From contig JAFKFN010000017.1 in assembly GCA_017308255.1 (NCBI GenBank), positions 11,386 through 75,385 of the forward strand: DNA of 64,000 bases. The letters are read 5' to 3'. A program made the position numbers and the translations under genes. How positions within the stretch are numbered: position 1 is the first letter of the stretch; the number at the start of each line of letters is the position of its first letter. Under the pieces are notes generated by a model. It did no database searches and was not told the DNA's origin. It saw only the letters and a program-made list of their open reading frames with translations. This document shows, piece by piece, positions 2,522 to 34,856 of this stretch. Origin of the DNA: Altererythrobacter sp. (GTDB lineage Bacteria > Pseudomonadota > Alphaproteobacteria > Sphingomonadales > Sphingomonadaceae).

Positions 2522-2701
2522 ATGAGCGAACGTTTCGAACGCCATCGCCAGCCGTGGCGCTCCGACGAAGTCGCCAAGCTCAAGGTGCTGGCGGGCAAGG
2601 GCAAGGGCCTGAAGGAAATCGCCAAGGCTCTCGGCCGTACCGAGGAATCGACCAAGGAGCGGGCCAAGATCGACGGCGTGGGCATCGCCAAAAAGCGCTG
2701 A
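2522..2701 (+). CDS. 59-aa small HTH-like protein
   Basis: SD AGGAG before ATG 2522; W-x3-EV-x2-L...LKEIAKALGRT pattern. Confidence 0.7.
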   Translation: MSERFERHRQPWRSDEVAKLKVLAGKGKGLKEIAKALGRTEESTKERAKIDGVGIAKKR

Positions 2702-2746
2702 TTTTACCGGGTTGAAGCTTCGCCGCCATCGCGCCACATGGGCGCG

Positions 2747-6613: not shown

Positions 6614-6785
6614 CGCGCCGGCCCGCGTGCGGGGGGTGTTGACGGTGTTGACACTGTCCTGAGCGAAACCCGCAGGGCCACCGCGCCCGCGCCCGAACGG
6701 GCCGCGATCCACGGGAATTTGCCGTTTGCAATCATGGGGTGAGGCCCTAACCCTTTTGTCCGTCACTAGGAAAGGGGAAACGCCT

Positions 6786-8327
6786 GTGTCCGATGCGCGC
6801 GAAGCCGCCTGGAAGCGCCTGAAGGCGGGTTCCGAAACGCTTGTCGAATTGTTCGCGGCGGATCCCGATCGCGCGAGCAAGCTTTCCGCCCGGTTTGAGC
6901 TGGAACAGGGCGGCATGCTGTTCGACTGGTCGAAAACCCATCTGACCGATGCCTTGCTGACCGGGTTCGAGGCGCTGGCGGAGGCCGCCGGATTCGGTGA
7001 GAAGCGGCGCCGGATGTTCGCTGGCGAGGTGGTCAATCCCACGGAGAACCGCGCCGCCGAACACACCGCGCTGCGCGGCGTGGGCAAGGCGGCGAGCGTG
7101 GAGGAAGCCGCTGCCTTGCGTGAGCGGATGAAGCTGCTGGTGGAGGCGATCCACGAAGGCGTGCTGGGCGACGTGCGCCACCTGATCCACATCGGCATCG
7201 GCGGTTCCGCCCTGGGGCCGGCGCTGGCGGTGGATGCGCTGGCGCGCGACCTGGCGCTGGTGGATGTCCACGTGGTCTCGAACATCGACGGCCTGGCGCT
7301 GGAAGAAGCCTTCGCCGCCTGCGATCCTGCTACGACGCTGATCGCGGTGGCCAGCAAGACCTTCACCACTGTCGAAACGATGACCAATGCCGCCAGCGCC
7401 CAGGCGTGGCTGGCGGACAACGGCGTCGCCGATCCGTCGGGCCGGGTTATCGCGTTGACCGCCTCTCCCGAAAAGGCGGTGCACTGGGGCGTGGACGAAA
7501 CGCGCATCCTGCCTTTCGCGGAAAGCGTGGGCGGGCGTTATTCGATCTGGTCTTCGATCGGTTTCCCCATCGCGCTGGCTACCGGGTGGGAGGATTTCGA
7601 AGCGATGCTGGCCGGCGCAGCGGCGATGGACGCGCATTTCCGCGATACCGACGGGCGGGCGAACCTGTGCCTGCTGGCCGCTTTCGCCGACCAGCTCTAT
7701 GCGCGGCTGAAAGGGGCCGAAACCCGGGCCGTGTTCGCTTATGACGAGCGGCTGCGGCTGCTGCCCGATTACCTCCAGCAGCTGGAGATGGAATCGAACG
7801 GCAAGCGGGTGACGCTGGAAGGCAAGCCGGTGGACGGCCCCACCGCGCCGATCACCTGGGGCGGGTTGGGCACCGATGCGCAGCACGCGGTGTTCCAGCT
7901 GCTCCACCAGGGTACGCACCTGGTGCCGATCGAATTCATCGCCAGCATCGCGCCGGGCGACCAGCTCGATCCCGAGCACCACCGCATCCTGCTGATGAAC
8001 TGTTTCGCGCAAGGTGCCGCGCTGATGGCCGGCCGGGCCAGCACCGATCCCGCGCGCGCCTATCCCGGCGACCGGCCGAGCGCCACGGTGCTGGTCGACG
8101 ATCTCGATCCCGCGACGCTGGGCGCGCTGATCGCGTTCCACGAACATCGCACTTTCGCCAATGCCGTGCTGATGGACATCAACCCGTTCGATCAGTTCGG
8201 CGTGGAGCTGGGCAAGGAGATCGCCCACAAGATCGAACAGGGCGGCGAACGCTTCGACGCCAGCACCGAAGCCCTGCTGAAGGCGGCGGGGTTGGAGGCA
8301 CCTTCCCCTCGTCGCCAGAGCGGATAG
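6786..8327 (+). CDS. pgi: Glucose-6-phosphate isomerase
   Basis: GIGGSALGP, SKTFTT, GGRYS, QQLEMESNGK, FDQFGVELGK. Confidence 0.97.
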   Translation: MSDAREAAWKRLKAGSETLVELFAADPDRASKLSARFELEQGGMLFDWSKTHLTDALLTGFEALAEAAGFGEKRRRMFAGEVVNPTENRAAEHTALRGVGKAASVEEAAALRERMKLLVEAIHEGVLGDVRHLIHIGIGGSALGPALAVDALARDLALVDVHVVSNIDGLALEEAFAACDPATTLIAVASKTFTTVETMTNAASAQAWLADNGVADPSGRVIALTASPEKAVHWGVDETRILPFAESVGGRYSIWSSIGFPIALATGWEDFEAMLAGAAAMDAHFRDTDGRANLCLLAAFADQLYARLKGAETRAVFAYDERLRLLPDYLQQLEMESNGKRVTLEGKPVDGPTAPITWGGLGTDAQHAVFQLLHQGTHLVPIEFIASIAPGDQLDPEHHRILLMNCFAQGAALMAGRASTDPARAYPGDRPSATVLVDDLDPATLGALIAFHEHRTFANAVLMDINPFDQFGVELGKEIAHKIEQGGERFDASTEALLKAAGLEAPSPRRQSG

Positions 8328-8338
8328 CGGGAACGGTC

Positions 8339-8959
8339 GTGACCATCCGTTTCGCCTTTGCCGCCATTCTCCTGCTGTTCGGTGCGCATCCTGCAATGGG
8401 CGCGTGTCTCGATGGTACTGTGCGGCCGATCGATTTCTTTGCGCCCACTCCGGGCCAAATCGTATTTGTCGCTGCCCCATCGTTGCAGGATCCCGTCCGG
8501 GGCTATGTCGTCCGCGTTTCTTCCGCCGGTCCTCAGGAGCCCCAGCCCAAGATCGAAGTGATCCAGCTTCTTAGGGACGATGGTTGTCCTCACTGGAGCA
8601 TGGAGAAGCAATGGAAAGCATCGCTGACGGCGGACGAACATGCCGAAGTTGTGCGGGCGGCGATGGCCTGGATGACGCCGCGGAACCCAGCTTCCAGCTT
8701 CCGTTCGGCGTGGCCCGACGATAGGGCATCGAGGGAAGGAGTGGACGGCGCGCTGCGGCTCCCCCCACCGCCGCCAGCGACCGACGGAACGCAGGTCGTG
8801 CTGCGACTGAGAGGGAGCGGCTGGGAAATTCTTCGCTACGAAAACCATTCTACAAAGGATGGCGCGGCGTTATCGGCGATTTTCTACCCCCTTGTGGCGA
8901 AATATGTTCCGGCACCGGATATTCCCACGAGTGACTGGCGCACCCGGACGAATGAATAG
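8339..8959 (+). CDS. Hypothetical exported protein
   Basis: 206-aa ORF with signal-peptide-like N-terminus; codon usage looks less GC3-rich than neighbours; no recognisable family. Confidence 0.55.
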   Translation: MTIRFAFAAILLLFGAHPAMGACLDGTVRPIDFFAPTPGQIVFVAAPSLQDPVRGYVVRVSSAGPQEPQPKIEVIQLLRDDGCPHWSMEKQWKASLTADEHAEVVRAAMAWMTPRNPASSFRSAWPDDRASREGVDGALRLPPPPPATDGTQVVLRLRGSGWEILRYENHSTKDGAALSAIFYPLVAKYVPAPDIPTSDWRTRTNE

Positions 8960-9027
8960 CCGTTTCAGGGGAATGGCCGGAAGGCTTTCAAGCGATTTTG
9001 CGCGAAATCGAATCTCACCGAAAGCCG

Positions 9028-9306
9028 CTATTCGACCTCTTCCGTTTCCTCCGCGCGCATCCGGGTGAAATCCGGCCGCAGCACGGCGCCGAAATCGTCT
9101 TCCGGCGGCGTGGCGCGCACATGGATATAAGGCACCCAGACATCGCCGTATTCGGCGCGCTGGTACCACAGGTCGAGCACGTCGTAGGACGACCATTCGC
9201 CATCGGGGCCTTGCAGGCGGATGCCTTCGCCGATGCGCGGCACGGCGATGAACTTCAGCCGCACCTGGTTCTGGTGAGTCTCGTTCTGGATTTCGATTTC
9301 GATCAA
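9028..9306 (-). CDS. Small acidic hypothetical protein
   Basis: 92 aa, host-like codon usage, fills the intergenic gap. Confidence 0.7.
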   Translation of the reverse strand: MIEIEIQNETHQNQVRLKFIAVPRIGEGIRLQGPDGEWSSYDVLDLWYQRAEYGDVWVPYIHVRATPPEDDFGAVLRPDFTRMRAEETEEVE

Positions 9307-9452
9307 CGTCGCAATTCCCCGGCGGCCCGCCGCGCCGCCCGCAGCGGAATTTCCCGCAAATTCAACGGCGACGCCCGAAGGGGGTAGGGCAAGACGGCTT
9401 CGCCTGAGTTTAGGCTCGTGGTTAATGGCCCGGCAGGGCGATCAATGGGCGA

Positions 9453-10025
9453 TCAGCGGGCAGGGCGGATGAACGGCACGATCATCGGTACGCGGGCGCG
9501 ATAGCCCTGGTAACCGCCCACCTCGCGTTCGAGGAACCGTTCCTCCACCCTGGCCTTCAAGGCGAAGCCCGCCGCGAACAGCACCAGGCCGAGCAGGGCC
9601 CAGGGCGTCGCGCGGATCACCGCCATGGCCGCGGCCGCGGCGATCAGGCCGGTATAGATCGGATGGCGCACCAGGGCATAAGGCCCGCTGTCCACCACCC
9701 GGTGATCGGCCATGCGTTCTATGCCGCCCGACCACAGCGTGCCCAGATGAATCCGCGCCCACCAGGCGAACAGGATGCCGCCCAGCGTCAGTGCCTCCAT
9801 CGACCAGCCCAGCAATGGGCTGATCGGCCACAGCAGTGGCCCGGCCAGGCTGGGAAGGGCGTTGAACAGCAGGAAGAAACCCAGCGCGATCATCACGAAA
9901 TGCAGCCGGTATTCACGGCGCGGCGCCTGGACGGTCGGCTTGCCGCGCCAGAAGGCGGCGATGTGCCAGGTGACGAACCAGGCGGCCCACAGGCCCACCG
10001 CGACGATGAAGAAGGTCCCCAGCAT
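9453..10025 (-). CDS. Isoprenylcysteine carboxylmethyltransferase (ICMT/PEMT) family membrane protein
   Basis: GPYALVRHPIYTG and KARVEERFL motifs. Confidence 0.9.
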   Translation of the reverse strand: MLGTFFIVAVGLWAAWFVTWHIAAFWRGKPTVQAPRREYRLHFVMIALGFFLLFNALPSLAGPLLWPISPLLGWSMEALTLGGILFAWWARIHLGTLWSGGIERMADHRVVDSGPYALVRHPIYTGLIAAAAAMAVIRATPWALLGLVLFAAGFALKARVEERFLEREVGGYQGYRARVPMIVPFIRPAR

Positions 10026-10096
10026 GAACCGCCCTTGTAGCGCGCGGGCCGGACCGCCGGAAGGACTCGATCATTGCCCGGATGCGCAAGATTCAT

Positions 10097-10125
10097 TTGA
10101 CTTTTCCGAAGCGCGCGACCATCTG
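10097..10125 (+). promoter_or_regulatory. Candidate sigma70 promoter of the DEAD-box helicase
   Basis: TTGACT-N17-CATCTG about 165 nt upstream of ATG 10290. Confidence 0.4.
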
Positions 10126-10289
10126 CCCGGCATCGAGGCGCCTTGGCAGCGTGAACGGCGATGCAAATCGCCCCGGCCGCACCTCGGTTTTTTCAAGAGC
10201 TTCCCTTTTCACGCGGGTCGTTCAGACACCCGCGTTGTCGCGCGCCTATGGGCCGCGCGCTGACGCATATTTTGCGAGTTATAATCAAA

Positions 10290-11699
10290 ATGACATTTGA
10301 ATCCCTCGGGCTGTCGCAGTCCGTTCTCCAGGCGCTCGAGCTGAAGGGCTATGGAACGCCGACCCCGATCCAGGCGCAAGCCATTCCCCACGTGCTCGAA
10401 GGGCGCGACCTGCTGGGCATTGCCCAGACCGGCACCGGCAAGACCGCCGCGTTCATGCTGCCGTCGATCGATCGGCTGGTCGCTTCCGACAAGCGGCCGA
10501 AGCCGCGCTCGTGCCGCATGCTGGTACTGGCCCCGACGCGCGAGCTGGCCGGCCAGATCGCCGACAGCGCGCGCGATTATGCCAAGTTCGCCCATCTCAA
10601 GGTCGTCACCGTGTTCGGCGGCACCTCGGTCAGCCGCAACCGGCAGGACGTGGCGCGCGGGGTCGATATCCTGATCGCCACGCCGGGCCGCCTGGTGGAC
10701 TTGTGCGACCAGAAGGCGCTCGATCTCAGCCAGGTCGAAATCCTCGTGCTGGACGAGGCGGACCAGATGCTCGATCTCGGCTTCATCCACGCGCTGCGGG
10801 CGATCGTGCGCCTGCTGCCGCAGAAGCGCCAGACGCTGTTCTTCTCGGCCACGATGCCGAACGCGATCAAGCAGCTCGCTGGGCAGTACCTGTCCGATCC
10901 GACGCAGGTTTCCGTGGCGCCGCAGGCGACCACGGCCGAGCGGGTGCAGCAATACGTCTGCTTCGTCGGCCAGGCCGAAAAGCAGGCCCTGCTCACCCTG
11001 GCGCTGCGCAAGGGTCTGCATTCGGGCGAGATGGACCGCGTGCTGATCTTCACCCGCACCAAGCATGGCGCTGACCGCGTGGTGAAGAAGCTGGCCCAGT
11101 CCGGCATCCGGTCGAACGCCATCCATGGCAACAAGAGCCAGCCGCAGCGCGAACGCGCCCTGGGCGAATTCCGCCAGGGCAGCGTGCGCGTGCTGGTGGC
11201 GACCGACATCGCCGCGCGCGGGATCGACATCCCGGGCGTGAGCCATGTCGTCAATTTCGAGCTGCCCAACGTGGCCGAACAATACGTCCACCGCATCGGC
11301 CGCACCGCGCGTGCCGGGCGTGAAGGCGTGGCGATCAGCTTCTGCGCGCAGGACGAACGCGATTATCTGCGCGACATCCAGCGGCTCACCCGCGTGACCC
11401 TGGACCAGGTGCCGCTGCCCGAAGGGCTGCGCGCCGAGGTGGAGATCGTCGCCAAGCATGTGGAGCCTGTTCGCGGCCCGCGTCCCCAGCCGCGCCGCAA
11501 CGGCGGCGGCGACCGGCGCGACAAGCGCACCGAAGCCCAGCGCGACGCGCGCGGCGAAGCCCGCGTGGAACCGCGCAGCGGCCATGGGGACCGGCGCAAG
11601 GCGCACGGTGCCGGCAGCGCCCATCCGGGCGGCAACGCCGGCAACCGCCGCCGCCGCAACCGTGGCGGCCGCCCGGGCGGCCAGCGGGCGCAGGCATGA
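10290..11699 (+). CDS. DEAD-box RNA helicase (RhlE-like)
   Basis: Q motif PTPIQ, AQTGTGKT, PTRELA, DEAD, SAT, HRIGRTARAG, RG-rich tail. Confidence 0.96.
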   Translation: MTFESLGLSQSVLQALELKGYGTPTPIQAQAIPHVLEGRDLLGIAQTGTGKTAAFMLPSIDRLVASDKRPKPRSCRMLVLAPTRELAGQIADSARDYAKFAHLKVVTVFGGTSVSRNRQDVARGVDILIATPGRLVDLCDQKALDLSQVEILVLDEADQMLDLGFIHALRAIVRLLPQKRQTLFFSATMPNAIKQLAGQYLSDPTQVSVAPQATTAERVQQYVCFVGQAEKQALLTLALRKGLHSGEMDRVLIFTRTKHGADRVVKKLAQSGIRSNAIHGNKSQPQRERALGEFRQGSVRVLVATDIAARGIDIPGVSHVVNFELPNVAEQYVHRIGRTARAGREGVAISFCAQDERDYLRDIQRLTRVTLDQVPLPEGLRAEVEIVAKHVEPVRGPRPQPRRNGGGDRRDKRTEAQRDARGEARVEPRSGHGDRRKAHGAGSAHPGGNAGNRRRRNRGGRPGGQRAQA

Positions 11700-11707
11700 G
11701 CTGCCTT

Positions 11708-11737
11708 TCGTCATCCCCGCCTGCGTGGGGATGACGA
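11708..11737. repeat. CGTC-type REP palindrome
   Basis: TCGTCATCCCCGC-CTGC-GTGGGGATGACGA hairpin. Confidence 0.8.
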
Positions 11738-11814
11738 GGGTTCGGATTTGACGGGCGCGGTTGCCGATCGCGCCCGCGGCCGCCATATCGCCCCGCACAG
11801 ACGGGAGCTTGCGC

Positions 11815-13158
11815 ATGGCCGATTACGATTACGACCTCTTCACGATCGGCGCCGGCTCCGGCGGGGTCCGGGCCAGCCGCGTAGCGGCTGCGCACGGTGC
11901 GAAAGTGGCGGTGGCGGAGGAGCATCGGGTCGGCGGCACCTGCGTGATCCGTGGCTGCGTGCCCAAGAAGATGCTGGTCTATGGCGCCCATTTCGCCGAG
12001 GACCTGCAGGATGCACGCGCCTTCGGCTGGACGGTGGAGAACTGCACGTTCGACTGGAAGGTGCTGCGCGACAACGTGCTGAAGGACGTGGACCGGCTGA
12101 ACGGCCTCTACACCCAGACGCTGGAAAACCATAAGGTCGAGATCATCCACCAGCGGGCGACCGTCACGGGCCCGAACGAGGTGACGCTGGCCGACGGCCG
12201 CAAGGTGACGGCCAAGTATATCCTCATCGCCACGGGCGCGCGGCCGCATGTCCCGGGCTGCCCGGGCCACGAGCACGGCATCACCTCCAACGAGGCGTTC
12301 CATCTCGATGCCTTGCCCAAGCGCATCCTGATCGCCGGCGGCGGCTATATCGCCAATGAATTCGCCGGCATCTTCAACGAGTTCGGCACCAGCGTGACGA
12401 TCATCAACCGGTCCGACCAGTTGCTGCGCGGCTATGACGAGCAGCTGCGCGACCGGCTGCTGCAGATATCGATCACCAAGGGAATCGATTTCCGCTTCAA
12501 GGCGGAGTTCCGCGGCATCGAGAAGCTGGAGAGCGGCGCGCTCAAGGTGTCGATGACCAATCATGACGATCTGGAAGTCGATTGCGTGATGTTCGCCACC
12601 GGCCGCCTGCCCAATACCGAGGGCCTGGGGCTGGAGGCGCTCGGCGTCGAACTGGGCGAGCGCGGGTCGATCAAGGTCGATCGCTTCAGCAAGTCCAGCG
12701 TGGACAGCATCTATGCGGTGGGCGACGTGACCGATCGCATCCAGCTGACCCCGGTGGCGATCCGCGAAGGGCAGGCCTTTGCCGACACCCTGTTCGGCAA
12801 CAAGCCGACCACGGTGGATTACAACCATGTTCCCAGCGCCGTGTTCAGCCACCCGCCGATGTGCGGCGTGGGGATGACGGAAAGCCAGGCCCGCAACGAA
12901 CTGGGCGCGATCCGGGTCTATACCTCGGACTTCCGGCCGATGAAGAACGTGCTCGCCGGCCGTAACGAACGCAGCCTCTACAAGATGATCTGCGACGAGG
13001 CGGACAAGGTGGTCGGCATCCACCTGCTCGGCCCGGATGCGCCGGAAATCCTCCAGGCCGCGGCGGTGGCGGTGAAGGCCGGGCTGACCAAGGCCGACTT
13101 CGACGCGACCGTGGCGATCCACCCCACCATGGCGGAAGAACTGGTGCTGATGCGGTAG
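11815..13158 (+). CDS. gor: Glutathione-disulfide reductase
   Basis: [19 protein letters not shown] redox disulfide, C-terminal IHPTMAEE. Confidence 0.96.
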
Positions 13159-13187
13159 GCTCCGCACGGGCGGAGGCCTCTTAGACA

Positions 13188-13276
13188 CTCGTCATTGCGA
13201 GGAGCGAAGCGACGAAGCAATCCAGGGGCGGCGCCCGCATCGCCCTGGATTGCTTCGCTACGCTCGCAATGACGAG
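13188..13276. repeat. CGTC-type REP doublet (REPIN-like)
   Basis: CGTCATTGCGAG...GAAGCAATCCAG / CTGGATTGCTTC...CTCGCAATGACG inverted pair. Confidence 0.88.
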
Positions 13277-13305
13277 ACTGGGACTGGGACTGGGACTGGG
13301 ACTGG
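13276..13305 (+). repeat. (GACTGG)x5 tandem repeat containing a (GGGACT)3GGG G-quadruplex motif
   Basis: Read directly; GGG runs start at 13280, 13286, 13292 and 13298. Confidence 0.9.
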
Positions 13306-13384
13306 CGGCTGGCCGCTCGCTCGGGGAAGGATTGGCAACGGGCCTGTGCGGTTCTACCCCTTTCCCACGCAGCAGGGAGAGCGC

Positions 13385-14911
13385 ATGTCCGCCAACATCG
13401 AGGAGCTTGAACGCCGCCGCGCCGCCGCCAGGCTGGGCGGGGGCGAGAAGCGGATCGCGGCGCAGCATGCCAAGGGCAAGCTGACCGCGCGCGAGCGGAT
13501 CGCCGTGCTGCTCGACGAAGGCAGCTTCGAAGAGCTCGACATGTATGTCGAGCACGACGCGGTCGATTTCGGGATCGACCGGCAGCGTATCCCCGGCGAT
13601 GGCGTGGTCACCGGCAGCGGCACGATCGACGGGCGGCTGGTCTTCGTGTTCAGCCAGGATTTCACCGTGTTCGGCGGATCGCTGTCCGAACGGCACGCGC
13701 AGAAGATCTGCAAGATCATGGACATGGCGATGAAAGTCGGCGCGCCGGTGATCGGGCTGAACGACAGCGGCGGCGCGCGCATCCAGGAAGGCGTCGCCAG
13801 CCTTGCCGGCTATGCCGAGGTGTTCCAGCGCAACGTGCTGGCGAGCGGGGTGATCCCGCAGCTCTCGCTCATCATGGGGCCGTGCGCGGGCGGGGCGGTC
13901 TATTCCCCGGCAATGACGGACTTCATCTTCATGGTGAAGGATTCGAGCTACATGTTCGTCACCGGGCCGGAAGTGGTCAGGACGGTCACTAATGAAGTGG
14001 TCACGCAGGAGGAACTGGGCGGGGCGATCACCCACACCACCCGCACGGGCGTGGCCGACGTGGCGTTCGAGAACGATATCGAGGCGCTGATGGCCGCCCG
14101 CGCCTTCATCAGCCTGCTGCCCGCGAACAACCGCAGCGGCGTGCCCGAATTGCCGAGCGACGATCCGTGGGACCGCCTGGAGGACAGCCTCGACACCCTG
14201 ATCCCTGCCAATGCCAGCCAGCCTTACGACATGCACGAGCTGGTGCGCAAAGTGCTGGATCATGGCGAGTTCTTCGAAATCCAGCCGGCGCATGGGGCGA
14301 ACATCATCTGCGGACTGGGCCGCGTCGAAGGGCGCACGGTGGGCGTGGTGGCCAACCAGCCCACGGTGCTGGCCGGCGTGCTGGACATCAACGCCAGCCG
14401 CAAGGCCGCGCGCTTCGTGCGCTTCTGCGATGCCTTCGGCATACCGATCGTGACGTTCGTGGACGTGCCCGGCTTCCTCCCTGGCACGGCGCAGGAGCAT
14501 GGCGGGATCATCAAGCATGGCGCCAAGCTGCTGTTCGCCTATGCCGAGGCGACCGTGCCCAAGATCACCGTGATCACCCGCAAGGCCTATGGCGGGGCCT
14601 ATGACGTCATGGCGTCAAAGCACTTGCGCGGCGACTTGAACTACGCCTGGCCCACCGCCGAGATTGCGGTGATGGGCGCCAAGGGCGCGGTGGAGATCAT
14701 CTTCCGCGGGCTTTCGCCGGAGGAAATCGCCGAGAAGACACAGGAGTACGAAGAGCGCTTCGCGAACCCGTTCGTGGCGGCTTCACGCGGCTATATCGAC
14801 GAGGTGATCTATCCGCACTCCACCCGGAAACGGATCGTGCTGGGGCTGCGGAAGCTGCGGGGGAAGCAGTTGGAGAACCCGTGGAAGAAACATGATAATC
14901 TACCGCTTTAA
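13385..14911 (+). CDS. pccB: Acyl-CoA (propionyl-CoA) carboxylase beta subunit
   Basis: [49 protein letters not shown] end. Confidence 0.95.
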
Positions 14912-14923
14912 CCTTGCGGCAGT

Positions 14924-15016
14924 CCGTCACCCTGAACTCGTTTCAGGGTCCATCTCTCCATCCACGCTGACATGGCAGGTCGTGAAATGGATGCTGAAAC
15001 AAGTTCAGCATGACGG
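14924..15016. repeat. CGTC-type REP doublet, third sequence variant
   Basis: CGTCACCCTGAACTCGTTTCAGGGT ... ATGCTGAAACAAGTTCAGCATGACG. Confidence 0.8.
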
Positions 15017-15028
15017 GGTTGGAGGGGA

Positions 15029-15487
15029 GTGGCGAAAACAATCTTCACCATTGGCTATGAACAGGCGACGCAAGCTGCGGTCCTTTCGGCGCTGCGTGAG
15101 GCGCGAGTGGAGGTAGTAGCGGACATCCGTTACCTGCCGCTTTCCCGCCGGCCGGGATTTTCCAAGAGTCCGCTGAGGGCCGCGGTGGAGGAGGCGGGGA
15201 TGGCGTATCGCCATTTCCGCCATGTCGGGACGCCGCCCGAAGGACGCGCGGCGGCGCGGCGGGGGGATCGGGAGACGTTGCGGCGGGTTTATGCGGGGCA
15301 GCTCGAATTGCCGGAGGCGCTGGCGCATATGGCCGAGTTGCGGCAGGTTGCGCTGGAGAAGCGGACTTGCCTGCTGTGCTATTGCCGTGAGGCCGACGAT
15401 TGCCATCGCGCGCTGCTGATGGAGGCGCTTTTCGCGGATTTCGAACGGGTGGATCTGACGCCGGACCTGGTCGGGACGCGTGAATAA
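15029..15487 (+). CDS. DUF488 family protein
   Basis: IFTIGYE start, ADIRYLPLSRRPGFSK, LLC-x7-CHR. Confidence 0.9.
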   Translation: MAKTIFTIGYEQATQAAVLSALREARVEVVADIRYLPLSRRPGFSKSPLRAAVEEAGMAYRHFRHVGTPPEGRAAARRGDRETLRRVYAGQLELPEALAHMAELRQVALEKRTCLLCYCREADDCHRALLMEALFADFERVDLTPDLVGTRE

Positions 15488-15488
15488 T

Positions 15489-15529
15489 TTCGTCATTGCG
15501 AGGAGCTTCGCTCCGCTCGCAATGACGAA
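15489..15529. repeat. Short CGTC-type REP palindrome
   Basis: TTCGTCATTGCGAG-GAGCTTCGCTCCG-CTCGCAATGACGAA. Confidence 0.85.
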
Positions 15530-15550
15530 GGTGGGGGTGGATGCGGGATT

Positions 15551-16951
15551 TTACGCCGCCGGCGCGCTCGCCGTCGCCTCGCCCATCAGGCGCTTGGCCA
15601 GCAGCAGCTTGAACGCCAGGAACGCCACCAATCCCACCGCCGATGTCGCGACGTGGAACAGCCAGAAGCTGACCGTGTCCCAGGTGGAATACCAGCCGCC
15701 GACATGGCCGATGATCTGGTTGGCGAGGAAGAACGCCAGATAATAGATGCCCACCACCGTGGCGTTGATCTGGCGCGGGGCGAGGCGGGTGAACAGGGCC
15801 AGGCTCACCGGCAGGATGTGGGCGAAGCCGATCGAATTGAACAAGTGGAACATGACCGGCCAGAACAGGCCGATCTTGGCATCTCCCTGCGTGGCCGCCG
15901 CGATGACCAAGCACAGGCCGCCGATCACCGTGAACACGCTGCCGATGACCATCTTGCCCAATTCGTCAGGCTCGGTGCCCTTGCGGTCGGAATACCATTT
16001 CCAGAACGCCACCACCGCCAGCAGCATCGAGAAGCTGAGCGCGGCGTCGATCGCCGTCATCCAGGTGGTGGGAATGCGATAATCGAAGAAAGTGAGCTGG
16101 AACTGCTCGTCCGCCCAGACGAGATAGGCGTTGAAGATCTCCTGATTGGTCAGCAGCGCGATGGCCATGATCGGCACCAGCACCAGCACCGCCGCGATCC
16201 GCATCCAGTCGTTGCGAGTGAGCTTGTCGCGGGGGGTGGATACGTTCTTCACCGGCCGGTTGTCCGGCGGCAGATAAGGACCGGCGGCGAGATAGGTCAC
16301 GACGCCCAGGACCATGACGATACCGGCCGTGCCGAAGCCGTAGTGCCAGCCGACTTTCTCCCCCAGCGTCCCGGTGACGAAGGGGGCGACGATCACGCTC
16401 ATCTGGATGGCGATGTAGAAGATCTGGAAGGCCATGGCGCGGCGCAGGTCGCCATCCTTGTAAAGCTCGCCCACCTGGCTGGCGATGTTGCCCTTGAACA
16501 GGCCGACGCCGACGATCAGCGTCAGCAGCGCGAAGATGAAGCTGCCTTCGAACGCCATCAGGAAGTGGCCGATGGCCATGACGATGCCGCCCGCGATCAG
16601 GGTGGCGCGGCGGCCGAGCCAGCGATCCGCCAGCAGCCCGCCGATGATCGGCGTGAGGTAGACCAGCGAGGTGTAATCGCCGAAGATCGCCGAGGCGAGC
16701 GGCTGCCCTTCCGCGCCGCCATATCGCACTTGTTGCAGCCAGCCGAGCCCGATCACCTGGCCGAACCGTTCCGGCAGCAGGTAATTGACCATGTAGAGCA
16801 CGAGCAGGTTCTGCATCGAATAGTACGAGAACCGCTCGCACCATTCGACCGCCGAGAGATAGGCGAGGCCCTTCGGATGGCCGAAGAACGCGCGATCGGC
16901 GCGGTCGCGGGTTTCGAAGTCCAGCTCGGGCGTCGCTTCGGCTACGGTCAT
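15551..16951 (-). CDS. POT/PTR family peptide:H+ symporter
   Basis: FFGHPKGL, EWCERFSYY (ExxERF), GLFKGNIASQVGELY. Confidence 0.93.
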   Translation of the reverse strand: MTVAEATPELDFETRDRADRAFFGHPKGLAYLSAVEWCERFSYYSMQNLLVLYMVNYLLPERFGQVIGLGWLQQVRYGGAEGQPLASAIFGDYTSLVYLTPIIGGLLADRWLGRRATLIAGGIVMAIGHFLMAFEGSFIFALLTLIVGVGLFKGNIASQVGELYKDGDLRRAMAFQIFYIAIQMSVIVAPFVTGTLGEKVGWHYGFGTAGIVMVLGVVTYLAAGPYLPPDNRPVKNVSTPRDKLTRNDWMRIAAVLVLVPIMAIALLTNQEIFNAYLVWADEQFQLTFFDYRIPTTWMTAIDAALSFSMLLAVVAFWKWYSDRKGTEPDELGKMVIGSVFTVIGGLCLVIAAATQGDAKIGLFWPVMFHLFNSIGFAHILPVSLALFTRLAPRQINATVVGIYYLAFFLANQIIGHVGGWYSTWDTVSFWLFHVATSAVGLVAFLAFKLLLAKRLMGEATASAPAA

Positions 16952-17063
16952 GCAGATCCCCGGGATAGTCTCGTTTGCGACGAAACTAGCGCGGCGGGGG
17001 AGGGTTGTCGCCTGCCTTCGTCAGGCGTGGATGTGGATAGAAGAGGGAGGACGTACTGCTTCT

Positions 17064-17291
17064 TTCGTCATCCCGCGGAGGCGGGGCCCAAGGCGACTGA
17101 GCGCCGCAGCGCTTTTTCGCCAGACCACGATCACCTGTCCTTGAATCGTCATTGCGAGCGTAGCGAAGCAATCCAGGGCGGCAGGGTAATACGCCCTGGA
17201 TTGCTTCGCTACGCTCGCAATGACGAGTGTTGGACGAGTGTTGGACTGAAGGCGATCGTGCGCCAGGTTCTCGTTTCGCGGGAATGACGAA
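17064..17291. repeat. Nested REP structure: outer CGTCATCCCGCG/CGCGGGAATGACG pair enclosing an inner doublet at 17147-17225
   Basis: Inner element nearly identical to those at 13188 and 21070; tandem GAGTGTTGGAC x2 at 17225-17246. Confidence 0.85.
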
Positions 17292-17310
17292 GCGTTGCGG
17301 CAGCAAGGGC

Positions 17311-18420
17311 TTAACTCCCCTGCAATTCCGCGTCGAGGAACGCGGCCACGTCGTCCAGCGACACCGCCTTGTCCAGGAACGCCTCCCCGATGCCATGCAG
17401 GAGGACGAAGGGCAGGGTGCCGGCATCCATCTTCTTGTCGTGCAGCATGTGATCGGCGAGCGCGCGGCCGTTGCAGTTGAGGCCGAGCGTGGAGATGGCG
17501 CTGGGCAGCCCGGCGGCGGCGATGGCCCCGGCGACGCGGTCCGCATCGGCAGCGGTGATATAGCCCCGCCGGGCGGAGTAGCGCGCCGCCAGCACCATGC
17601 CTAGCGCCACCCCTTCGCCATGCAGCAAACGGTCGGAAAAGCCGGTCTGCGCCTCCAGCGAATGGCCGAAGGTATGGCCCAGGTTGAGCAGGGCGCGCTT
17701 GCCGGTGGTCTCCCGCTCGTCCTCGGCCACGATGCGGGCCTTGGCCTTGACGCTTTCGGTGACGGCGTATTCCTGCGCCTCGGCATCGCCGGCGAGCACG
17801 GCGGGGCCGTGGCCCTCGCACCATTCGAAGAACGCCGTGTCGCCCAGGATGCCGTACTTGATGACCTCGGCATAGCCGGCGCACATTTCGCGCAGGGGCA
17901 GGGTGGCCAGCGCGCCGAGATCGGCCAGCACCAGGCTGGGCTGGTGGAACGCGCCGACCAGGTTCTTGCCGGCGCTGGTGTTGATCGCCGTCTTGCCGCC
18001 TACGCTGCTGTCCACCTGGGCCAGCAAGGTGGTGGGAAGCTGGATGAAGCCGCAGCCGCGCTTGAGGATCGCCGCGGCGAAGCCGGTGAGATCGCCGATC
18101 ACCCCGCCGCCCAGCGCCAGAATGTGATCGCCGCGCTCCACCTCTTCGGCCAGCAGCCAGTCCATCACCTTTTCCAGCACGGCCCACGACTTGGCGCCTT
18201 CGCCGGGTTCCAGCACCATCCAGCGCGGTTCGAACCCGGCGGAGACCAGTGCCGCCTGCACCGTGTCGCGCCAATGCGCCGCGACGTTGGAATCGGTCAC
18301 GATCGGTACGCGCTGCTTGCGCAGCAGCTTGCCGCATTGCGCCGGCAGATCGGCCAGCAGGCCGCCGCCCACGCGCACTTCATAAGCGCGGCCGGCGAGT
18401 TCGACAGGGATCACAGCCAT
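17311..18420 (-). CDS. aroB: 3-dehydroquinate synthase
   Basis: GGGVIGDL, PTTLLAQVDSSVGGKT, LNLGHTFGH. Confidence 0.97.
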   Translation of the reverse strand: MAVIPVELAGRAYEVRVGGGLLADLPAQCGKLLRKQRVPIVTDSNVAAHWRDTVQAALVSAGFEPRWMVLEPGEGAKSWAVLEKVMDWLLAEEVERGDHILALGGGVIGDLTGFAAAILKRGCGFIQLPTTLLAQVDSSVGGKTAINTSAGKNLVGAFHQPSLVLADLGALATLPLREMCAGYAEVIKYGILGDTAFFEWCEGHGPAVLAGDAEAQEYAVTESVKAKARIVAEDERETTGKRALLNLGHTFGHSLEAQTGFSDRLLHGEGVALGMVLAARYSARRGYITAADADRVAGAIAAAGLPSAISTLGLNCNGRALADHMLHDKKMDAGTLPFVLLHGIGEAFLDKAVSLDDVAAFLDAELQGS

Positions 18421-32285: not shown

Positions 32286-33128
32286 ATGCACTACCAGCTT
32301 GCCACTCGGTTCGGTCGCAACGCCCATCAGATCAGCGGCCGGGAGCCGCTCGATAACGAGGCGCTGTATCGGCACGTCCCGTCAATCTTCGCCCGCGAGG
32401 CGCACGACAGCCGTTCGGATCGCTATGTCTATGTCCCCACCATCGACATCGTAGAGGGGCTGCGTCGGGAAGGATGGTCGCCGTTCTTCGCGGTCCAGTC
32501 CGTTCCGCGCGACGGCAGCCGCCACGGCCACGCCAAGCACATGCTGCGCCTGCGCCGGGATGACGGCATCGGCAAGCCCGAGGCCGCAGAAGTCATCATC
32601 GTGAACAGCCATGACGGGACCAGTGCCTATCAGATGTTCGCCGGGATGCTGCGTTTCGTCTGCACCAACAGCATGATCGCGGGCGAGCGGTTTGAGGAGG
32701 TGCGCGTTCCCCATAAGGGCAACATCGAGCACGATATCATCGAAGGCGTTTACACCGTCGCCGAGGACTTCCCCCGGCTGATCGACGCCAGCGAGTCGAT
32801 GAAGGCGATCCAGCTTTCGCCGGATGAGCAGCGCTTGCTCGGCGAGGTTAGCCTTGTTGCTCGCTATGGCGACGACGAAAGCCCGATTCGGCCCGAGCAG
32901 ATCATTGAGCCGCGCCGCCGCGAGGATGTAGACCGCAGCCTGTGGACCACATTCAACGTCATTCAGGAGAATGTCGTTCGTGGCGGGTTGCATGGCCGCA
33001 AGCGCAATGCGGAGGGCCGTATCCGCCGCGTGCAAACCCGCGCCATCAACGGCATCGACCAGAACGTGACGCTTAATCGCGCGCTCTGGACGCTGGCTGA
33101 GGGGATGCAGCGCCTCAAGGCCGCCTGA
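32286..33128 (+). CDS. DUF932/DUF945 family protein
   Basis: PSIFA...HDSRSDRYVYVPT, NSHDGTSAYQMFAGMLRFVCTN, LWTTFNVIQEN, NRALW; SD AGGAGG. Confidence 0.92.
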   Translation: MHYQLATRFGRNAHQISGREPLDNEALYRHVPSIFAREAHDSRSDRYVYVPTIDIVEGLRREGWSPFFAVQSVPRDGSRHGHAKHMLRLRRDDGIGKPEAAEVIIVNSHDGTSAYQMFAGMLRFVCTNSMIAGERFEEVRVPHKGNIEHDIIEGVYTVAEDFPRLIDASESMKAIQLSPDEQRLLGEVSLVARYGDDESPIRPEQIIEPRRREDVDRSLWTTFNVIQENVVRGGLHGRKRNAEGRIRRVQTRAINGIDQNVTLNRALWTLAEGMQRLKAA

Positions 33129-33138
33129 CTGTTCCCCG

Positions 33139-33170
33139 CCGCAGGGCCGGAGTTCCGGCCCTGCGGTTTT
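33139..33170 (+). terminator. Intrinsic terminator after DUF932
   Basis: 12-bp perfect stem, AGTT loop, TTTT. Confidence 0.85.
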
Positions 33171-33282
33171 GCCGCTTGCGCGCCGATCCGCTGCGCCGGA
33201 TCGGCAGCGGCCGCGCGTCCCAAAGGTCCGCGCGGCCGCATGGGCGCGCTCACCGGGCTGGCGCCCGGCTCGCGGTGGGTAG

Positions 33283-33545
33283 TGGTAAAATCCCCAGCGC
33301 TGCCTTAAAAGGGCGATGGGCTGCTACGCGGCAGCCTGGGGTGTGGAAACCCCACGTTTAGCGGTTCGGCACCGGCCGTAACGGTGCCGCAATCCTTGAC
33401 CACGCGGTCGGGGAGCCTGTGACGTATGTCCAGGCGCTCCGGTGCTAAAGGTCACAGGAACCGTCTAAACGCGGTTTTCCAACTCCCCGATCAGGGTTCA
33501 GGAGCTGTTTGCGGGGGCGCACCGCAAACCAGCAGCCCCTGTGAG
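33283..33545 (+). ncRNA. Candidate structured non-coding RNA or long qseM leader
   Basis: Extended -10 TGGTAAAAT at 33283-33291; many nested and crossing helices with G-U pairs on the plus strand; no credible ORF. Confidence 0.45.
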
Positions 33546-33660
33546 TGTGCAGTAGGCAATGCAGATTCCGCGCGCAATTATGCCTGGCAAGCACGTCGAA
33601 AATGCTCGGCATTGTCCTATTGGTTAACGCGGACGGGAAGCCAAGGGCATGGTGGTCAAG

Positions 33661-33924
33661 ATGAGATTCGATGATCGGGCGCCCGATTCACCACAACTCA
33701 CCAGCTATGACGAAGGTCATCTGGCAGATTATCTGCGCTTGCTCGACGCCGACGCCGATGGGGCCGATTGGCGCGAGGCTGCGAGGCTGATCTTCGGCAT
33801 CGACACGACCGCCGAGCCGGATCGCGCGAAGACGATGCACGACTCTCACTTGGCCCGCGCGCGGTGGATGACTGAGGTTGGCTACGCTCATCTGCTCGGC
33901 TGTCAGCGCCCGCTAAACTGTTAA
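33661..33924 (+). CDS. qseM: QseM-like DUF2285 antiactivator
   Basis: TSYDEGHLADYLRLLDADADGADWREAARLIFGID...HDSHLARARWMTEVGYAHLL; alternative start 33649. Confidence 0.85.
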   Translation: MRFDDRAPDSPQLTSYDEGHLADYLRLLDADADGADWREAARLIFGIDTTAEPDRAKTMHDSHLARARWMTEVGYAHLLGCQRPLNC

Positions 33925-34072
33925 GATTTAACTCCAATCTGGATCGAGTTCCGGGGGTAATTGCTCCGCTCGCACGGCATGGTTGTGCGCGATCTTCGCC
34001 CTAGCAAACGTCAGTGGCGACCGGGATGTTCGGTGCTCCGAAATCCGCGCGAGGCGCGGTGGGGAGGATGCA

Positions 34073-34856
34073 ATGCCGACGCCGCCTGGGCGTCGCCAGC
34101 GACGCGCCGGCGGAATGTCCGACGCGCTCGGGCGCGCCGATCTAGCCGCGGAGTTCTTGCGGCGGAACCGCACCTACCGCGCCGAACATACGCAGATGCA
34201 AGAGCGCATCGACGAGGGCGCCGTCGCGAAGAACGCCGCCGAATTGGCGTTCGCGCGGCGCTGGGGGTTATCCTTTCGCCACGGCGCCGGATGACCTCTC
34301 GGAGCCGGTCGTCTGGCGCCCGGAGCTGACCGCTGTCACGGTCATTCTCGACGCTGCGCCGGAGGGATTCAAGACCGCCGCTCCGGTCGATCCTCGCGCA
34401 CTCGGGGCGCTGCTCGCCGACCTGGCCGGGATTGAAGGCCGCCACGTCATCGTCGCCGACGCGGCCGGCGAGCATCGACTCTGGCTGCGCGATGCGACCC
34501 CCGGCCGGCCGCTCGCGGCCATCATCCCGCTTGACAAGGATTTCCCCACCCGGATCGCCAGCTTGCTGCGTTTCCACCGCCGTCTGCTCGGCCGCGCTGC
34601 CGGGCCGCTGCCGCGCGGCTGGCCGCTTACCGCCTACCGGCTCGCCCGGCTCGACCTGATGCTCCGCGCGCTCGACCTGCGTGATGCCGGAGCAACCTAT
34701 CGCGAGATCGCCGCCGAGCTGGGGCGTGACGACGCGAACAAACTATCCGCGAGCGACTGGAAGATGTCGGCCTCGCGCTCGTTCGTCGTGCGGCTGGTCC
34801 GCGACGGCATCGCCATGATGAACGGCGACTACCGCAAGCTGCTCCGCATCCGCTGA
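34073..34856 (+). CDS. fseA: FseA-like transcriptional activator made by +1 programmed frameshift (DUF6499 ORF 34073-34294 joined to DUF2285 frame 34275-34856), 260 aa predicted
   Basis: SD GGAGG; AAEFLRRN; CGC.TGG.GGG.TTA.TCC.TTT.CGC at 34259-34279; the +1 frame is open with LRALDLRDAGATYREIA HTH. Confidence 0.88.

What the first reader, a model, noticed from the sequence alone, without database searches (positions are those of the whole stretch)
33283..33545. Compact pseudoknot/switch-like structured element upstream of qseM: candidate ICE-encoded ncRNA controlling transfer
Seen: an extended -10 (TG-G-TAAAAT, 33283-33291) precedes about 250 nt with no credible ORF but dense complementarity. 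A closing helix 33318-25/33531-38 (8 bp perfect) competes with a local hairpin at 33318-37. Further helices: hairpin 33337-54; helix A 33355-67/33458-71 (13 bp, one bulge); hairpin 33368-88 (7 bp); helix 33416-23/33451-58 (8 bp); hairpin GTTTGCGG/CCGCAAAC within 33507-33529. Helix B, 33406-15/33483-92 (10 bp, extendable by 33391-96/33493-98), crosses helix A, so it is either a pseudoknot or a two-state switch. The non-canonical pairs are G-U on the plus strand, favouring a plus-strand RNA. I do not recognise it as tmRNA, RNase P, 6S, SRP, a group I/II intron or a riboswitch I know. Inference: in ICEMlSym the qseM antiactivator is controlled by QseC, which is absent here, so this element may be an RNA-level controller of qseM and hence of excision and transfer, or a standalone ICE ncRNA.
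Basis: partly seen in the sequence, partly recalled or inferred. Interest (0 to 1): 0.8.

Follow-up and report, generated by a model that had tools for sequence, protein, structure and literature searches.

The report
Pseudoknotted leader RNA upstream of qseM
The stretch is a real, promoter-driven, doubly pseudoknotted 5' leader RNA of a large, so far uncurated family that sits in front of transfer and lysogeny regulators (TraM, QseM, XRE, antirepressors) on mobile elements of Proteobacteria and looks like an orphan riboswitch.

Summary
Window 33318-33540 (+) encodes a conserved, structured plus-strand RNA with its own sigma-70-type promoter.

The element is not ICE-specific. A covariance model finds it in 358 rhizobial and other plasmids, in 100/100 fetched loci, and in 22 of 151 alphaproteobacterial family representatives, at up to 9 copies per genome. 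In pTiC58 it is the published 234-nt traM 5' UTR, which accumulates as an abundant ~217-nt RNA starting at the base homologous to G33318.

In relatives, the 3' strand of the pseudoknots doubles as the 5' arm of an intrinsic terminator (22/46) or as an anti-Shine-Dalgarno sequence. This is riboswitch-like "ON" architecture; the signal is unknown.

Rfam has no family for it. However, sRNA-Xcc1 (RF02221) of beta/gamma-proteobacterial integrons and prophages turns out to be the 3' half of an RNA with the same architecture.

In this window the link to qseM rests on position only: a 115-nt spacer, with no terminator and no conserved SD pairing. The run-finding tool for sequencing reads was closed, so this genome has no direct transcript evidence. 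The scan had not noted this RNA before on other DNA.

The parts
   Evidence: Aligns with CTGGCG/CTAGCG/TTGCGC, 17 nt upstream of the -10, in >100 homologues. pTiC58 has gctggca at the same place.
33305..33311 (+). -10 box (TTAAAAG; family consensus CTATAAG)
   Evidence: Conserved column block in the alignments. It lies 7 nt upstream of the mapped start in pTiC58.
33318..33318 (+). Predicted transcription start (G), inferred by homology
   Evidence: The pTiC58 traM TSS at 149937 is the first base of P1 (Lee et al. 2013, PMC3738593 supplement). The homologous base here is G33318.
33319..33336 (+). P1 hairpin (7 bp, ACGC loop)
   Evidence: 97.4% paired; 7/7 pairs show double changes.
33338..33353 (+). 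P2 hairpin GGGG-UGUGGAAA-CCCC; its loop (33344-49) is the 5' strand of pseudoknot PK1
   Evidence: P2 is 100% paired. PK1 is 94% paired with 4/6 pairs covarying in A3 and 6/7 in divergent copies.
33356..33470 (+).
   Evidence: 98.1% paired; 8/9 pairs show double changes, with up to 5 pair types per position.
33367..33389 (+). P4 hairpin
   Evidence: 97.8% paired; 7/8 pairs covary.
33393..33414 (+). Alternative local hairpin UCCUUGACC/GGUCGGGGA (P4b), mutually exclusive with PK2
   Evidence: 9-11 bp in most of the 79 variants, rich in U-G pairs. 87% paired in A3 despite a register shift between clades.
33406..33415 (+).
   Evidence: Pairs with 33483-92. Compensatory variants include GGCCGGGGG/CCCCCGGCU, GCCGGGAG/CUUCCGGC and GCCGGGUG/CACCCGGC. 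91.6% paired in A5.
33416..33458 (+). P5 with inner hairpin P5a (33433-46) and near-invariant internal loop (G)UAUGUCCAGG ... CUAAAGG
   Evidence: P5 is 98.4% paired and P5a 99.8%. The loop letters are invariant or nearly so even in divergent copies that were not selected by the search pattern.
33475..33498 (+). Switching strand: the PK1 3' strand (33476-81) and PK2 3' strand CUCCCCGAUC (33483-92), followed by AGGGUU (33493-98)
   Evidence: In relatives this strand is also the 5' arm of a terminator (22/46) or is complementary to the Shine-Dalgarno region.
33504..33533 (+). P6 hairpin with conserved loop GGGCGCA; specific to the plasmid/ICE clade
   Evidence: 89.9% paired in A3. Present in only about 10 of 51 divergent copies. 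The pTiC58 abundant RNA ends just 3' of it.
33540..33648 (+). Spacer between the leader and the qseM-like gene; contains the conserved box CCTATTGGTTAACGCGG (33616-32)
   Evidence: Alignment of 8 clade members. The 22-codon ORF at 33559 is not conserved.
33649..33924 (+). qseM-like gene (91 aa), the presumed regulated gene
   Evidence: Pfam RovC_DNA-bd/DUF2285, E = 3.8e-7. The same gene follows the leader in 11 loci at +88 to +132 nt.

Best explanation
The element is the promoter and 5' leader of the qseM-like transcript.

**Shown**
- A sigma-70-type promoter (-35 at 33283-88, -10 at 33305-11) precedes a plus-strand RNA of about 220 nt.
- The RNA folds into a compact core: hairpins P1 and P2, a long helix P3 enclosing P4 and P5, and two pseudoknots.
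- PK1 pairs the P2 loop with 33476-81. PK2 pairs the G strand 33406-15 with the C strand 33483-92.
- The G strand can alternatively pair with the upstream pyrimidine strand 33393-401.

**Shown in relatives, inferred here**
- The 3' strand of the pseudoknots is a switching strand.
- When it is held in the core, downstream expression is allowed.
- When it is free, it forms the 5' arm of an intrinsic terminator and/or pairs with the Shine-Dalgarno region.
- The RNA therefore behaves as an 'ON' riboswitch-like sensor.

**Inferred**
- Some cellular signal that stabilises the pseudoknotted core sets how much antiactivator (QseM here, TraM on Ti-type plasmids) is made. That in turn sets the threshold for excision and transfer. 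The signal could be a small molecule, an ion or another factor; its identity is unknown.
- In this window's clade the read-out is probably transcript continuation or stability across the 115-nt spacer rather than direct SD masking.
For: **The family is real**
- blastn finds the core in 358 plasmids.
- A 26-nt pattern finds more than 118 genome loci.
- Covariance model R1 scores 100/100 loci at 40-236 bits.
- R1 finds 1-9 copies in 22/151 alphaproteobacterial family representatives.

**Structure**
- A3: 95.3% paired versus 80.3% in shuffles; 50/63 pairs are compensatory.
- In 51 divergent copies: 90.8% versus 64.3%. This includes both pseudoknots, which the aligning model did not contain.

**Strand and transcription**
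- G-U 752 versus A-C 52.
- A conserved -35/-10 lies in the same orientation.
- The pTiC58 homologue (203.9 bits, 149931-150163, 8 nt before traM) has a mapped TSS at 149937 and a 234-nt 5' UTR.
- That homologue is listed as the abundant RNA pTi_149938F (149938-150154). RPKM is 2545-4465 without TEX and 6638-17365 with TEX, and coverage is at least 10x that of adjacent regions (PMC3738593 supplement).

**Cis-regulatory design**
- An ORF with an SD starts 25-40 nt after the element in most loci.
- 22/46 divergent copies have a terminator hairpin plus U-tract starting 5-8 nt into the C strand.
- Other copies have GGGGAGUU next to the start codon, complementary to AACUCCCC.
- The SD-proximal sequences GGGUUGG versus GGGUUAG, and CAAGCC versus CGAGCC, follow changes in the switching strand.
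- In RF02221-type loci the RBS region copies the P2 loop and the P3 5' strand (CCGAAAA-GGAG-ACGUAAG) and changes with them in four variants.

**Competing pairing and protein data**
- The G strand has two conserved partners.
- TraM protein drops in an A. tumefaciens hfq mutant (PMC4201532). This fits post-transcriptional control.
Against: - No ligand or effector is known, and the downstream genes are heterogeneous. They include regulators, lipoproteins, outer-membrane proteins, a chemoreceptor, nucleases and tiny unknowns. A metabolite cannot be read from the regulon.
- In this window's clade there is no terminator. The start codon is 115 nt away, and no conserved pairing between the switching strand and the qseM RBS was found. 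qseM may have a promoter of its own in the spacer.
- Statistical support for the anti-SD pairing is modest. Own versus swapped strands give -16.6 versus -14.8 kcal/mol. The variant association gives Fisher p = 0.06 on sequences that are not independent.
- The abundant short RNA in Agrobacterium, and the published description of sRNA-Xcc1 as a trans-acting sRNA, leave room for a function in trans.
Confidence: 0.7

Rival explanations
1. The RNA works mainly in trans. It is a stable sRNA of about 217 nt, released from the 5' UTR or terminated before the gene, that base-pairs with other mRNAs. This is what has been claimed for sRNA-Xcc1 and for the neighbouring Ti-plasmid sRNA QfsR.
For: - The pTiC58 homologue accumulates at least 10-fold above the adjacent traM region in four growth conditions.
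- sRNA-Xcc1, its partial relative, was detected as an 88-nt species (PMC2996969), and the title of Chen et al. 2011 calls it trans-acting.
- In this window there is no obvious expression platform.
- Exposed pyrimidine-rich stretches (AUCCUC, CUCCCC) resemble the anti-SD seeds of alphaproteobacterial sRNAs (own knowledge).
Against: - Position and orientation relative to a downstream ORF are kept in nearly every locus.
- The terminators and SD-complementary segments overlap the pseudoknot strand.
- The most conserved letters are internal-loop and junction residues, not a single-stranded seed.
- Up to 8-9 copies occur per genome, each in front of its own gene.
Confidence: 0.15
2. The leader is a constitutive structural 5' UTR. 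It gives stability, processing or a docking site for a general RNA-binding protein such as Hfq, but does not switch in response to any signal.
For: - The RNA is highly stable and abundant in all four conditions tested in Agrobacterium.
- TraM levels depend on Hfq.
- The regulon is heterogeneous, with no metabolic theme.
Against: - Two conserved, mutually exclusive partners exist for the G strand.
- Terminators or SD-sequestering helices are built on the pseudoknot's 3' strand in different lineages. That is the hallmark of a conditional switch.
- About 20 near-invariant unpaired residues around P5 suggest a binding pocket.
Confidence: 0.1
3. The element acts as single-stranded DNA during conjugation, for example as an Frpo/ssi-type single-strand promoter or primosome site of the leading region, rather than as RNA.
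For: - It lies among leading-region-type genes: ParB-like, DUF736 and DUF932.
- It folds equally well on both strands by energy.
Against: - A conserved double-strand promoter lies directly upstream, and an RNA 5' end has been mapped in pTiC58.
- Many copies are chromosomal and multi-copy, in front of non-conjugative genes with RNA terminators and SD pairings.
- The G-U bias fixes one strand, the same as the mRNA strand.
Confidence: 0.02

Closest known systems
traM 5' UTR leader pTi_149938F of Agrobacterium fabrum C58 (Lee et al. 2013, PLoS One, PMC3738593, Tables S2/S3)
   Same: - It is a true homologue: R1 scores 203.9 bits at pTiC58 149931-150163, immediately upstream of traM.
- It has the same promoter layout, with the start at the first base of P1.
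- It is experimentally transcribed, enriched by TEX treatment and very abundant.
   Different: - In that paper it is only an entry in a list of 20 '5' UTR leaders'. No structure, pseudoknots, family or function were described there, as far as the text and supplement searches show.
- Its downstream gene is TraM at +8 nt, not a QseM-like gene at +115 nt.
sRNA-Xcc1, Rfam RF02221 (Xanthomonas integron cassettes; genomic islands and prophages of beta/gamma-proteobacteria)
   Same: - The architecture is the same. The 87-nt Rfam model corresponds to the PK2 helix (GGCCGGGKG/CMCCCGGYC) enclosing a P5-like hairpin with a conserved internal loop, followed by the 3' strands of P3 and PK1.
- Upstream of RF02221 hits lie a P2-like hairpin, PK1 and P3 with the same bulge, all covarying (A6: 86.2% versus 74.0% in shuffles; PK1 7/7 pairs with double changes).
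- It is also multi-copy, carried on mobile elements and placed upstream of a gene: symE, Bro-N/P22 Ant, Rha.
   Different: - The sequences are too far apart for either model to find the other family. The window has no RF02221 hit even at E<=10, and R1 scores RF02221 loci at only 7-19 bits.
- The P5 loop letters differ: AAUACAAUA...GAAU versus GUAUGUCCA...CUAAAG.
- In place of the P4/P4b region it has other hairpins.
- It is curated as an 87-nt trans-acting sRNA, not as part of a leader of about 200 nt.
Riboswitches whose pseudoknot 3' strand overlaps the expression platform (for example ZTP/pfl, cobalamin kissing-loop types; own knowledge of these classes)
   Same: - A conserved aptamer-like core with strong covariation.
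- Lineage-specific expression platforms, either a terminator or SD sequestration, that share a strand with a long-range pairing of the core.
- 'ON' logic.
   Different: - No ligand is known.
- The regulon is not metabolic. It is made of mobile-element regulators and envelope or secreted proteins.
- It is not a member of any Rfam riboswitch family.
QfsR (RNA1083) of pTiC58, bioRxiv 10.1101/533729
   Same: - It is a plasmid-borne, strongly structured RNA (z = -7.2).
- It is conserved on repABC plasmids, lies next to a DUF736 gene and is linked to conjugation and quorum sensing.
   Different: - It shows no sequence similarity and has a different fold.
- It lies at a different locus (139075-139262, minus strand).
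- Its authors showed it acts in trans.

Membership tests
Rfam RF02221 sRNA-Xcc1 | Covariance-model score at or above the gathering score (53 bits) | tested here: not met
   There is no RF02221 match in window 33100-33700 even at E<=10, and none in the whole own genome. The best alphaproteobacterial copy reaches 38.6 bits.
Rfam RF02221 sRNA-Xcc1 | Outer helix GGCCGGGKG/CMCCCGGYC enclosing a hairpin with a conserved asymmetric internal loop | tested here: met
   It corresponds to PK2 plus P5 of the window RNA (33406-15/33483-92 enclosing 33416-58). See the cmscan alignment and the pair counts.
Rfam RF02221 sRNA-Xcc1 | Acts as a trans-acting sRNA of about 88-100 nt | not testable with these tools
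   Only literature statements are available. The context found here argues for a cis leader.
Riboswitch (generic definition) | Conserved structured aptamer in a 5' UTR, supported by covariation | tested here: met
.
Riboswitch (generic definition) | Expression platform (terminator or SD-sequestering helix) that shares nucleotides with the aptamer | tested here: met
   This is met in relatives. 22/46 have terminators overlapping the C strand, and SD-complementary or RBS-mimic segments occur. In the window's own clade it is inconclusive.
Riboswitch (generic definition) | Direct, specific binding of a small ligand that changes the fold | not testable with these tools
   This needs in-line probing, ITC or reporter assays.
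Riboswitch (generic definition) | Functionally coherent set of regulated genes pointing to the ligand | tested here: not met
   The downstream genes are TraM, QseM-like, XRE, ECF sigma, MCP, OMP, autotransporter, lipoproteins, nucleases, Bro-N/Ant, Rha and many unknowns.
traM-leader family of alphaproteobacterial plasmids/ICEs (model R1 built here; homologue of pTi_149938F) | Full-length match to R1 with P1-P6, PK1 and PK2, and the upstream CTGGCG-N17-CTATAAG-type promoter | tested here: met
   The window scores 219.7 bits over model positions 1-230. The window was part of the seed alignment, so its score is partly circular. Independent loci such as pTiC58 score 203.9 bits.
QfsR | Sequence or structure similarity to pTiC58 139075-139262 | tested here: not met
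   blastn with word size 7 gives only chance 10-14-mers. The fold is different.
Single-stranded-DNA promoter (Frpo/ssi) | Long imperfect hairpin that reconstitutes -35/-10 boxes in ssDNA, restricted to leading regions of conjugative elements | tested here: not met
   The fold is a multi-branch pseudoknotted structure with an ordinary duplex promoter upstream. Many copies are chromosomal and not linked to conjugation.

The most novel reading that the evidence does not exclude
The alphaproteobacterial leader and the sRNA-Xcc1 group would together form one orphan riboswitch superfamily. Plasmids, ICEs, integron cassettes and prophages of Alpha-, Beta- and Gammaproteobacteria would use it to read a host-cell signal directly at the RNA level. 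That reading would gate the regulators that decide transfer or induction: TraM, QseM, XRE repressors, Ant/Bro and Rha antirepressors, and SymE. The published 'trans-acting sRNA' would be its terminated or processed 3' half.
Probability: 0.35. Interest if true: 0.9.

Novelty: new variant of a known kind. Interest (0 to 1): 0.8.

Why it matters
TraM and QseM set the threshold at which quorum sensing triggers the transfer of Ti and symbiosis plasmids and of ICEs. A conserved sensor RNA in front of them would be an unrecognised input into horizontal gene transfer in rhizobia, agrobacteria and sphingomonads.

The family is large. It has hundreds of plasmid copies, occurs in about 15% of sampled alphaproteobacterial families and reaches 9 copies per genome. 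It also has the anatomy of a riboswitch, yet it has no Rfam entry and no ligand.

The work also suggests that a curated Rfam family, sRNA-Xcc1, describes only the 3' half of a longer cis-acting leader. sRNA-Xcc1 is routinely annotated in islands, integrons and prophages as a virulence-linked trans sRNA. If the suggestion holds, those annotations would have to be read differently.

The proposal is directly testable with reporter fusions and probing in laboratory strains of Agrobacterium.

Tried and rejected
- **Rfam.** The whole window at gathering threshold, and the region at E<=10, gave only chance hits on the upstream terminator hairpin.
- **QfsR homology.** Rejected: no similarity.
- **ssDNA-promoter reading.** Rejected (see rivals).
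- **Coding potential.** Indels of 1-2 nt run through the alignment. The 22-codon ORF at 33559 is not conserved.
- **Closing helix 33318-25/33531-38.** Not conserved, so dropped.
- **Register problem.** The first CM alignment placed the G strand one column off between clades. P4b and PK2 were therefore scored per sequence in a script and on the divergent set.
- **Anti-SD pairing statistics.** Only modest: swap control -16.6 versus -14.8 kcal/mol and Fisher p = 0.06. I treat the pairing as suggestive and rely instead on the terminator overlap and the RBS-mimic variants.
- **Literature.** Searches for a traM leader, motif or riboswitch found nothing. Chen et al. 2011 on sRNA-Xcc1 (PMC3256417) is not held.
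- **blastn of the RF02221 consensus against plasmids.** One weak hit.
- **Chance match.** One pattern hit (L040, an Omnitrophota MAG) was the only one of the 100 sources that gave no R1 match; it matched the 26-nt pattern by chance.
- **PraR/PhrR lead.** This concerns low-pH induction of related XRE genes. I did not test whether those genes carry the leader.
Full report
**What is at the locus**

The 520-nt gap between a DUF932 gene (ending at 33128) and a 91-aa qseM-like gene (33649-33924) holds no credible ORF. Pfam matches the qseM-like gene to RovC_DNA-bd/DUF2285. Upstream lie ParB-like, DUF736 and DUF932 genes. The stretch 33290-33560 folds 4.4 SD better than dinucleotide shuffles on either strand. 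Rfam gives nothing there at gathering threshold or at E<=10. The only weak hits fall on the GC-rich hairpin plus U-run that ends the DUF932 gene.

**It is conserved far beyond this ICE**

- blastn against PLSDB finds window 33306-33533 at 73-78% identity in 358 plasmids of Agrobacterium, Rhizobium, Bradyrhizobium, Methylobacterium and others. No feature is annotated there.
- A 26-nt pattern from the most conserved block finds more than 118 loci in one-per-species genomes of Hyphomicrobiales, Sphingomonadales and Rhodobacterales.
- A covariance model (R1) matches 100 times in 100 loci at 40-236 bits.
- R1 finds one copy in the window's own genome.
- R1 finds 1-9 copies in 22 of 151 genomes that each represent one alphaproteobacterial family.
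- Outside the class, R1 finds almost nothing.

**Structure**

On the 100-sequence alignment, 95.3% of cells form standard pairs against 80.3% in column shuffles. Structures with the partner slid by 1-3 columns give 39-49%. Fifty of 63 pairs show changes on both sides.

On 51 divergent copies the figures are 90.8% versus 64.3%. This includes the two pseudoknots, which the aligning model did not contain. PK1 has 6/7 pairs, and PK2 6/10 pairs, with double changes.

The helices in window coordinates are:

| Helix | Coordinates |
|---|---|
| P1 | 33319-36 |
| P2 | 33338-53 |
| P4 | 33367-89 |
| P5 | 33416-23 / 33451-58 |
| P5a | 33433-46 |
| P6 | 33504-33 |

PK1 covaries conspicuously: UGGAAA/UUUCCA, UAGAAA/UUUCUA, UCGUAA/UUACGA, UCAUAA/UUAUGA and UUCAAAA/UUUUGAA.

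The G-rich strand of PK2 has a second conserved partner, the pyrimidine strand 33393-401. The resulting local hairpin is 9-11 bp in most variants, so the two states exclude each other.

P6 belongs only to the plasmid/ICE clade.

**Strand, promoter, transcript**

Paired columns hold 752 G-U/U-G cells against 52 A-C/C-A, so the plus strand folds.

Directly upstream, all homologues keep a CTGGCG/TTGCGC box, about 17 nt of spacer, and CTATAAG. In the window these are TGGTAA (33283-88) and TTAAAAG (33305-11).

The pTiC58 copy lies at 149931-150163, 8 nt before traM. Lee et al. 2013 mapped the traM start at 149937, giving a 5' UTR of 234 nt; the other published data set also gives 234. They listed pTi_149938F (149938-150154) among RNAs whose coverage exceeds adjacent regions at least 10-fold. 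Its RPKM is 2545-4465 without TEX and 6638-17365 with TEX, in four conditions (PMC3738593 supplement).

Position 149937 is the first base of P1. The homologous base here is G33318. This transfers experimental support for a plus-strand primary transcript to the family.

**Why a cis-acting switch**

In the plasmid/ICE set an ORF with an SD begins 25-40 nt after P6 in most loci. The downstream genes in that set are:

| Downstream gene | Loci |
|---|---|
| TraM (PF09228) | 53 |
| XRE HTH proteins | 16 |
| QseM-like proteins, at about +130 nt | 11 |
| Large secreted proteins | 6 |
| Small Methylobacterium proteins, an ECF sigma factor, DUF5818 | the remainder |

In the divergent chromosomal copies the 3' end is plainer.

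- In 22 of 46 copies, a stem of 6-14 bp followed by a U-tract starts 5-8 nt into the PK2 3' strand. An example is AACACCCCGAUCGCCAAUUUAUUUUGGCGGUCUUUUUUUU.
- In other copies the start codon is preceded by GGGGAGUU, complementary to AACUCCCC. Examples are the eight XRE paralogues of one genome.
- In plasmid copies the SD-proximal sequence follows variants of the switching strand: CCAACCC/GGGUUGG versus CUAACCC/GGGUUAG, and GGCUUG/CAAGCC versus GGCUCG/CGAGCC.

The global statistics for this last pairing are modest, so I treat it as suggestive.

Taken together, the pseudoknot's 3' strand is either held in the core (expression allowed) or free to terminate transcription or mask the SD. This is ON-type logic. 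What tips the balance is unknown.

**Relation to sRNA-Xcc1**

One divergent alpha copy hits Rfam RF02221 below threshold: 38.6 bits against a gathering score of 53. The alignment shows that the 87-nt model equals the PK2 helix, a P5-like hairpin, and the 3' strands of P3 and PK1.

RF02221 occurs in 39 of 151 sampled Pseudomonadota genomes, mostly beta and gamma, and often in several copies. In 14 such loci the upstream 110 nt contain a P2-like hairpin. Its loop pairs with the segment just 5' of the C strand (7/7 pairs with double changes), and there is a P3 with the same bulge. Overall 86.2% of cells are paired versus 74.0% in shuffles and 36-54% in slid controls.

The ribosome-binding region downstream repeats the P2 loop and the P3 5' strand around GGAG, and it changes with them...CAAACAG...ACGUAAG...AAUAGUAG...ACACAAG.

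Downstream genes there are Bro-N/P22-Ant antirepressors, Rha, a Rap1a immunity protein and unknowns. A preprint places sRNA-Xcc1 upstream of symE in the commonest Xanthomonas integron cassette.

The curated sRNA therefore appears to be the 3' half of a longer leader with the same architecture as the window RNA. By sequence the two groups are separate: the window has no RF02221 hit, and R1 scores RF02221 loci at 7-19 bits.

**What remains weak for this window**

In the sphingomonad-type ICE clade the qseM-like start is 115 nt beyond P6. There is no terminator. The spacer contains a conserved box, CCTATTGGTTAACGCGG (33616-32), that could belong to a second promoter or an operator. No conserved pairing between the switching strand and the RBS was found. 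Control of qseM by the leader is therefore an inference from position, orientation and analogy with traM.

**Verdict**

- The RNA is a member of a large, uncurated alphaproteobacterial leader family. It is experimentally transcribed in Agrobacterium, has riboswitch-like anatomy, and is a distant architectural relative of sRNA-Xcc1.
- Its signal and its exact output in this ICE are open.

Noticed in passing
window 33138-33170: A GC-rich 12-bp hairpin followed by UUUU lies directly after the DUF932 stop codon. It looks like that gene's terminator, and it caused the only (chance) low-score Rfam hits in the region.
   Followed up: partly
window 33262-33281: A small palindrome, CCGGGC-TGGCG-CCCGG, lies just upstream of the -35 box. 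It is conserved in the sphingomonad-type ICE clade (L038, L054, L079, L082, L111) and could be an operator or a hairpin.
   Followed up: no
window 33616-33632: CCTATTGGTTAACGCGG is the best-conserved block of the spacer between the leader and the qseM-like gene. It could be a second promoter or a regulator site. The 22-codon ORF at 33559 is not conserved.
   Followed up: partly
window 33326-33329 and 33515-33521 (P1 loop and P6 loop): The P1 loop change ACGC to ACGU co-occurs with the P6 loop change GGGCG to GGACG in 5 of 7 U-variants and 0 of 74 C-variants. It does so in Methylobacterium and in Rhizobiaceae. This hints at a loop-loop tertiary base pair.
   Followed up: partly
L018, L026, L027, L030 (Agrobacterium/Rhizobium loci), about 55-65 nt upstream of the leader start: A TGCAGATCTGCA core, like the TraR tra box (own knowledge), lies upstream of the leader promoter. 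In these plasmids the leader-traM transcript is therefore probably TraR-activated as well.
   Followed up: no
L182-L189 (genome G228): Eight paralogous 137-aa XRE regulators in one 3.7-Mb genome each carry their own copy of the leader. Each has a TTGACC-N17-GTTATCT promoter and an SD (GGGGAGUU) complementary to the switching strand. Their relation to the PraR/PhrR/CdxA family was not tested.
   Followed up: partly
L005 3076-3263 (pTiC58 139075-139262, minus strand): QfsR lies just downstream of a DUF736 gene, as the window RNA lies downstream of DUF736-DUF932. It folds very strongly (z = -7.2) but shares no sequence with the window RNA.
   Followed up: yes
Published table for Xylella fastidiosa (PMC12189769): Five sRNA-Xcc1 copies lie about 380 nt apart in one genomic island. 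In another strain a copy sits next to C4 antisense RNA and isrK annotations. Both would fit leader-plus-small-gene repeats and phage immunity regions.
   Followed up: no
window 33983-34856: A Trans_reg_dom ORF and a RovC_DNA-bd ORF lie in different frames downstream of the qseM-like gene. This is consistent with the neighbouring note on a frameshifted FseA. I did not examine it.
   Followed up: no
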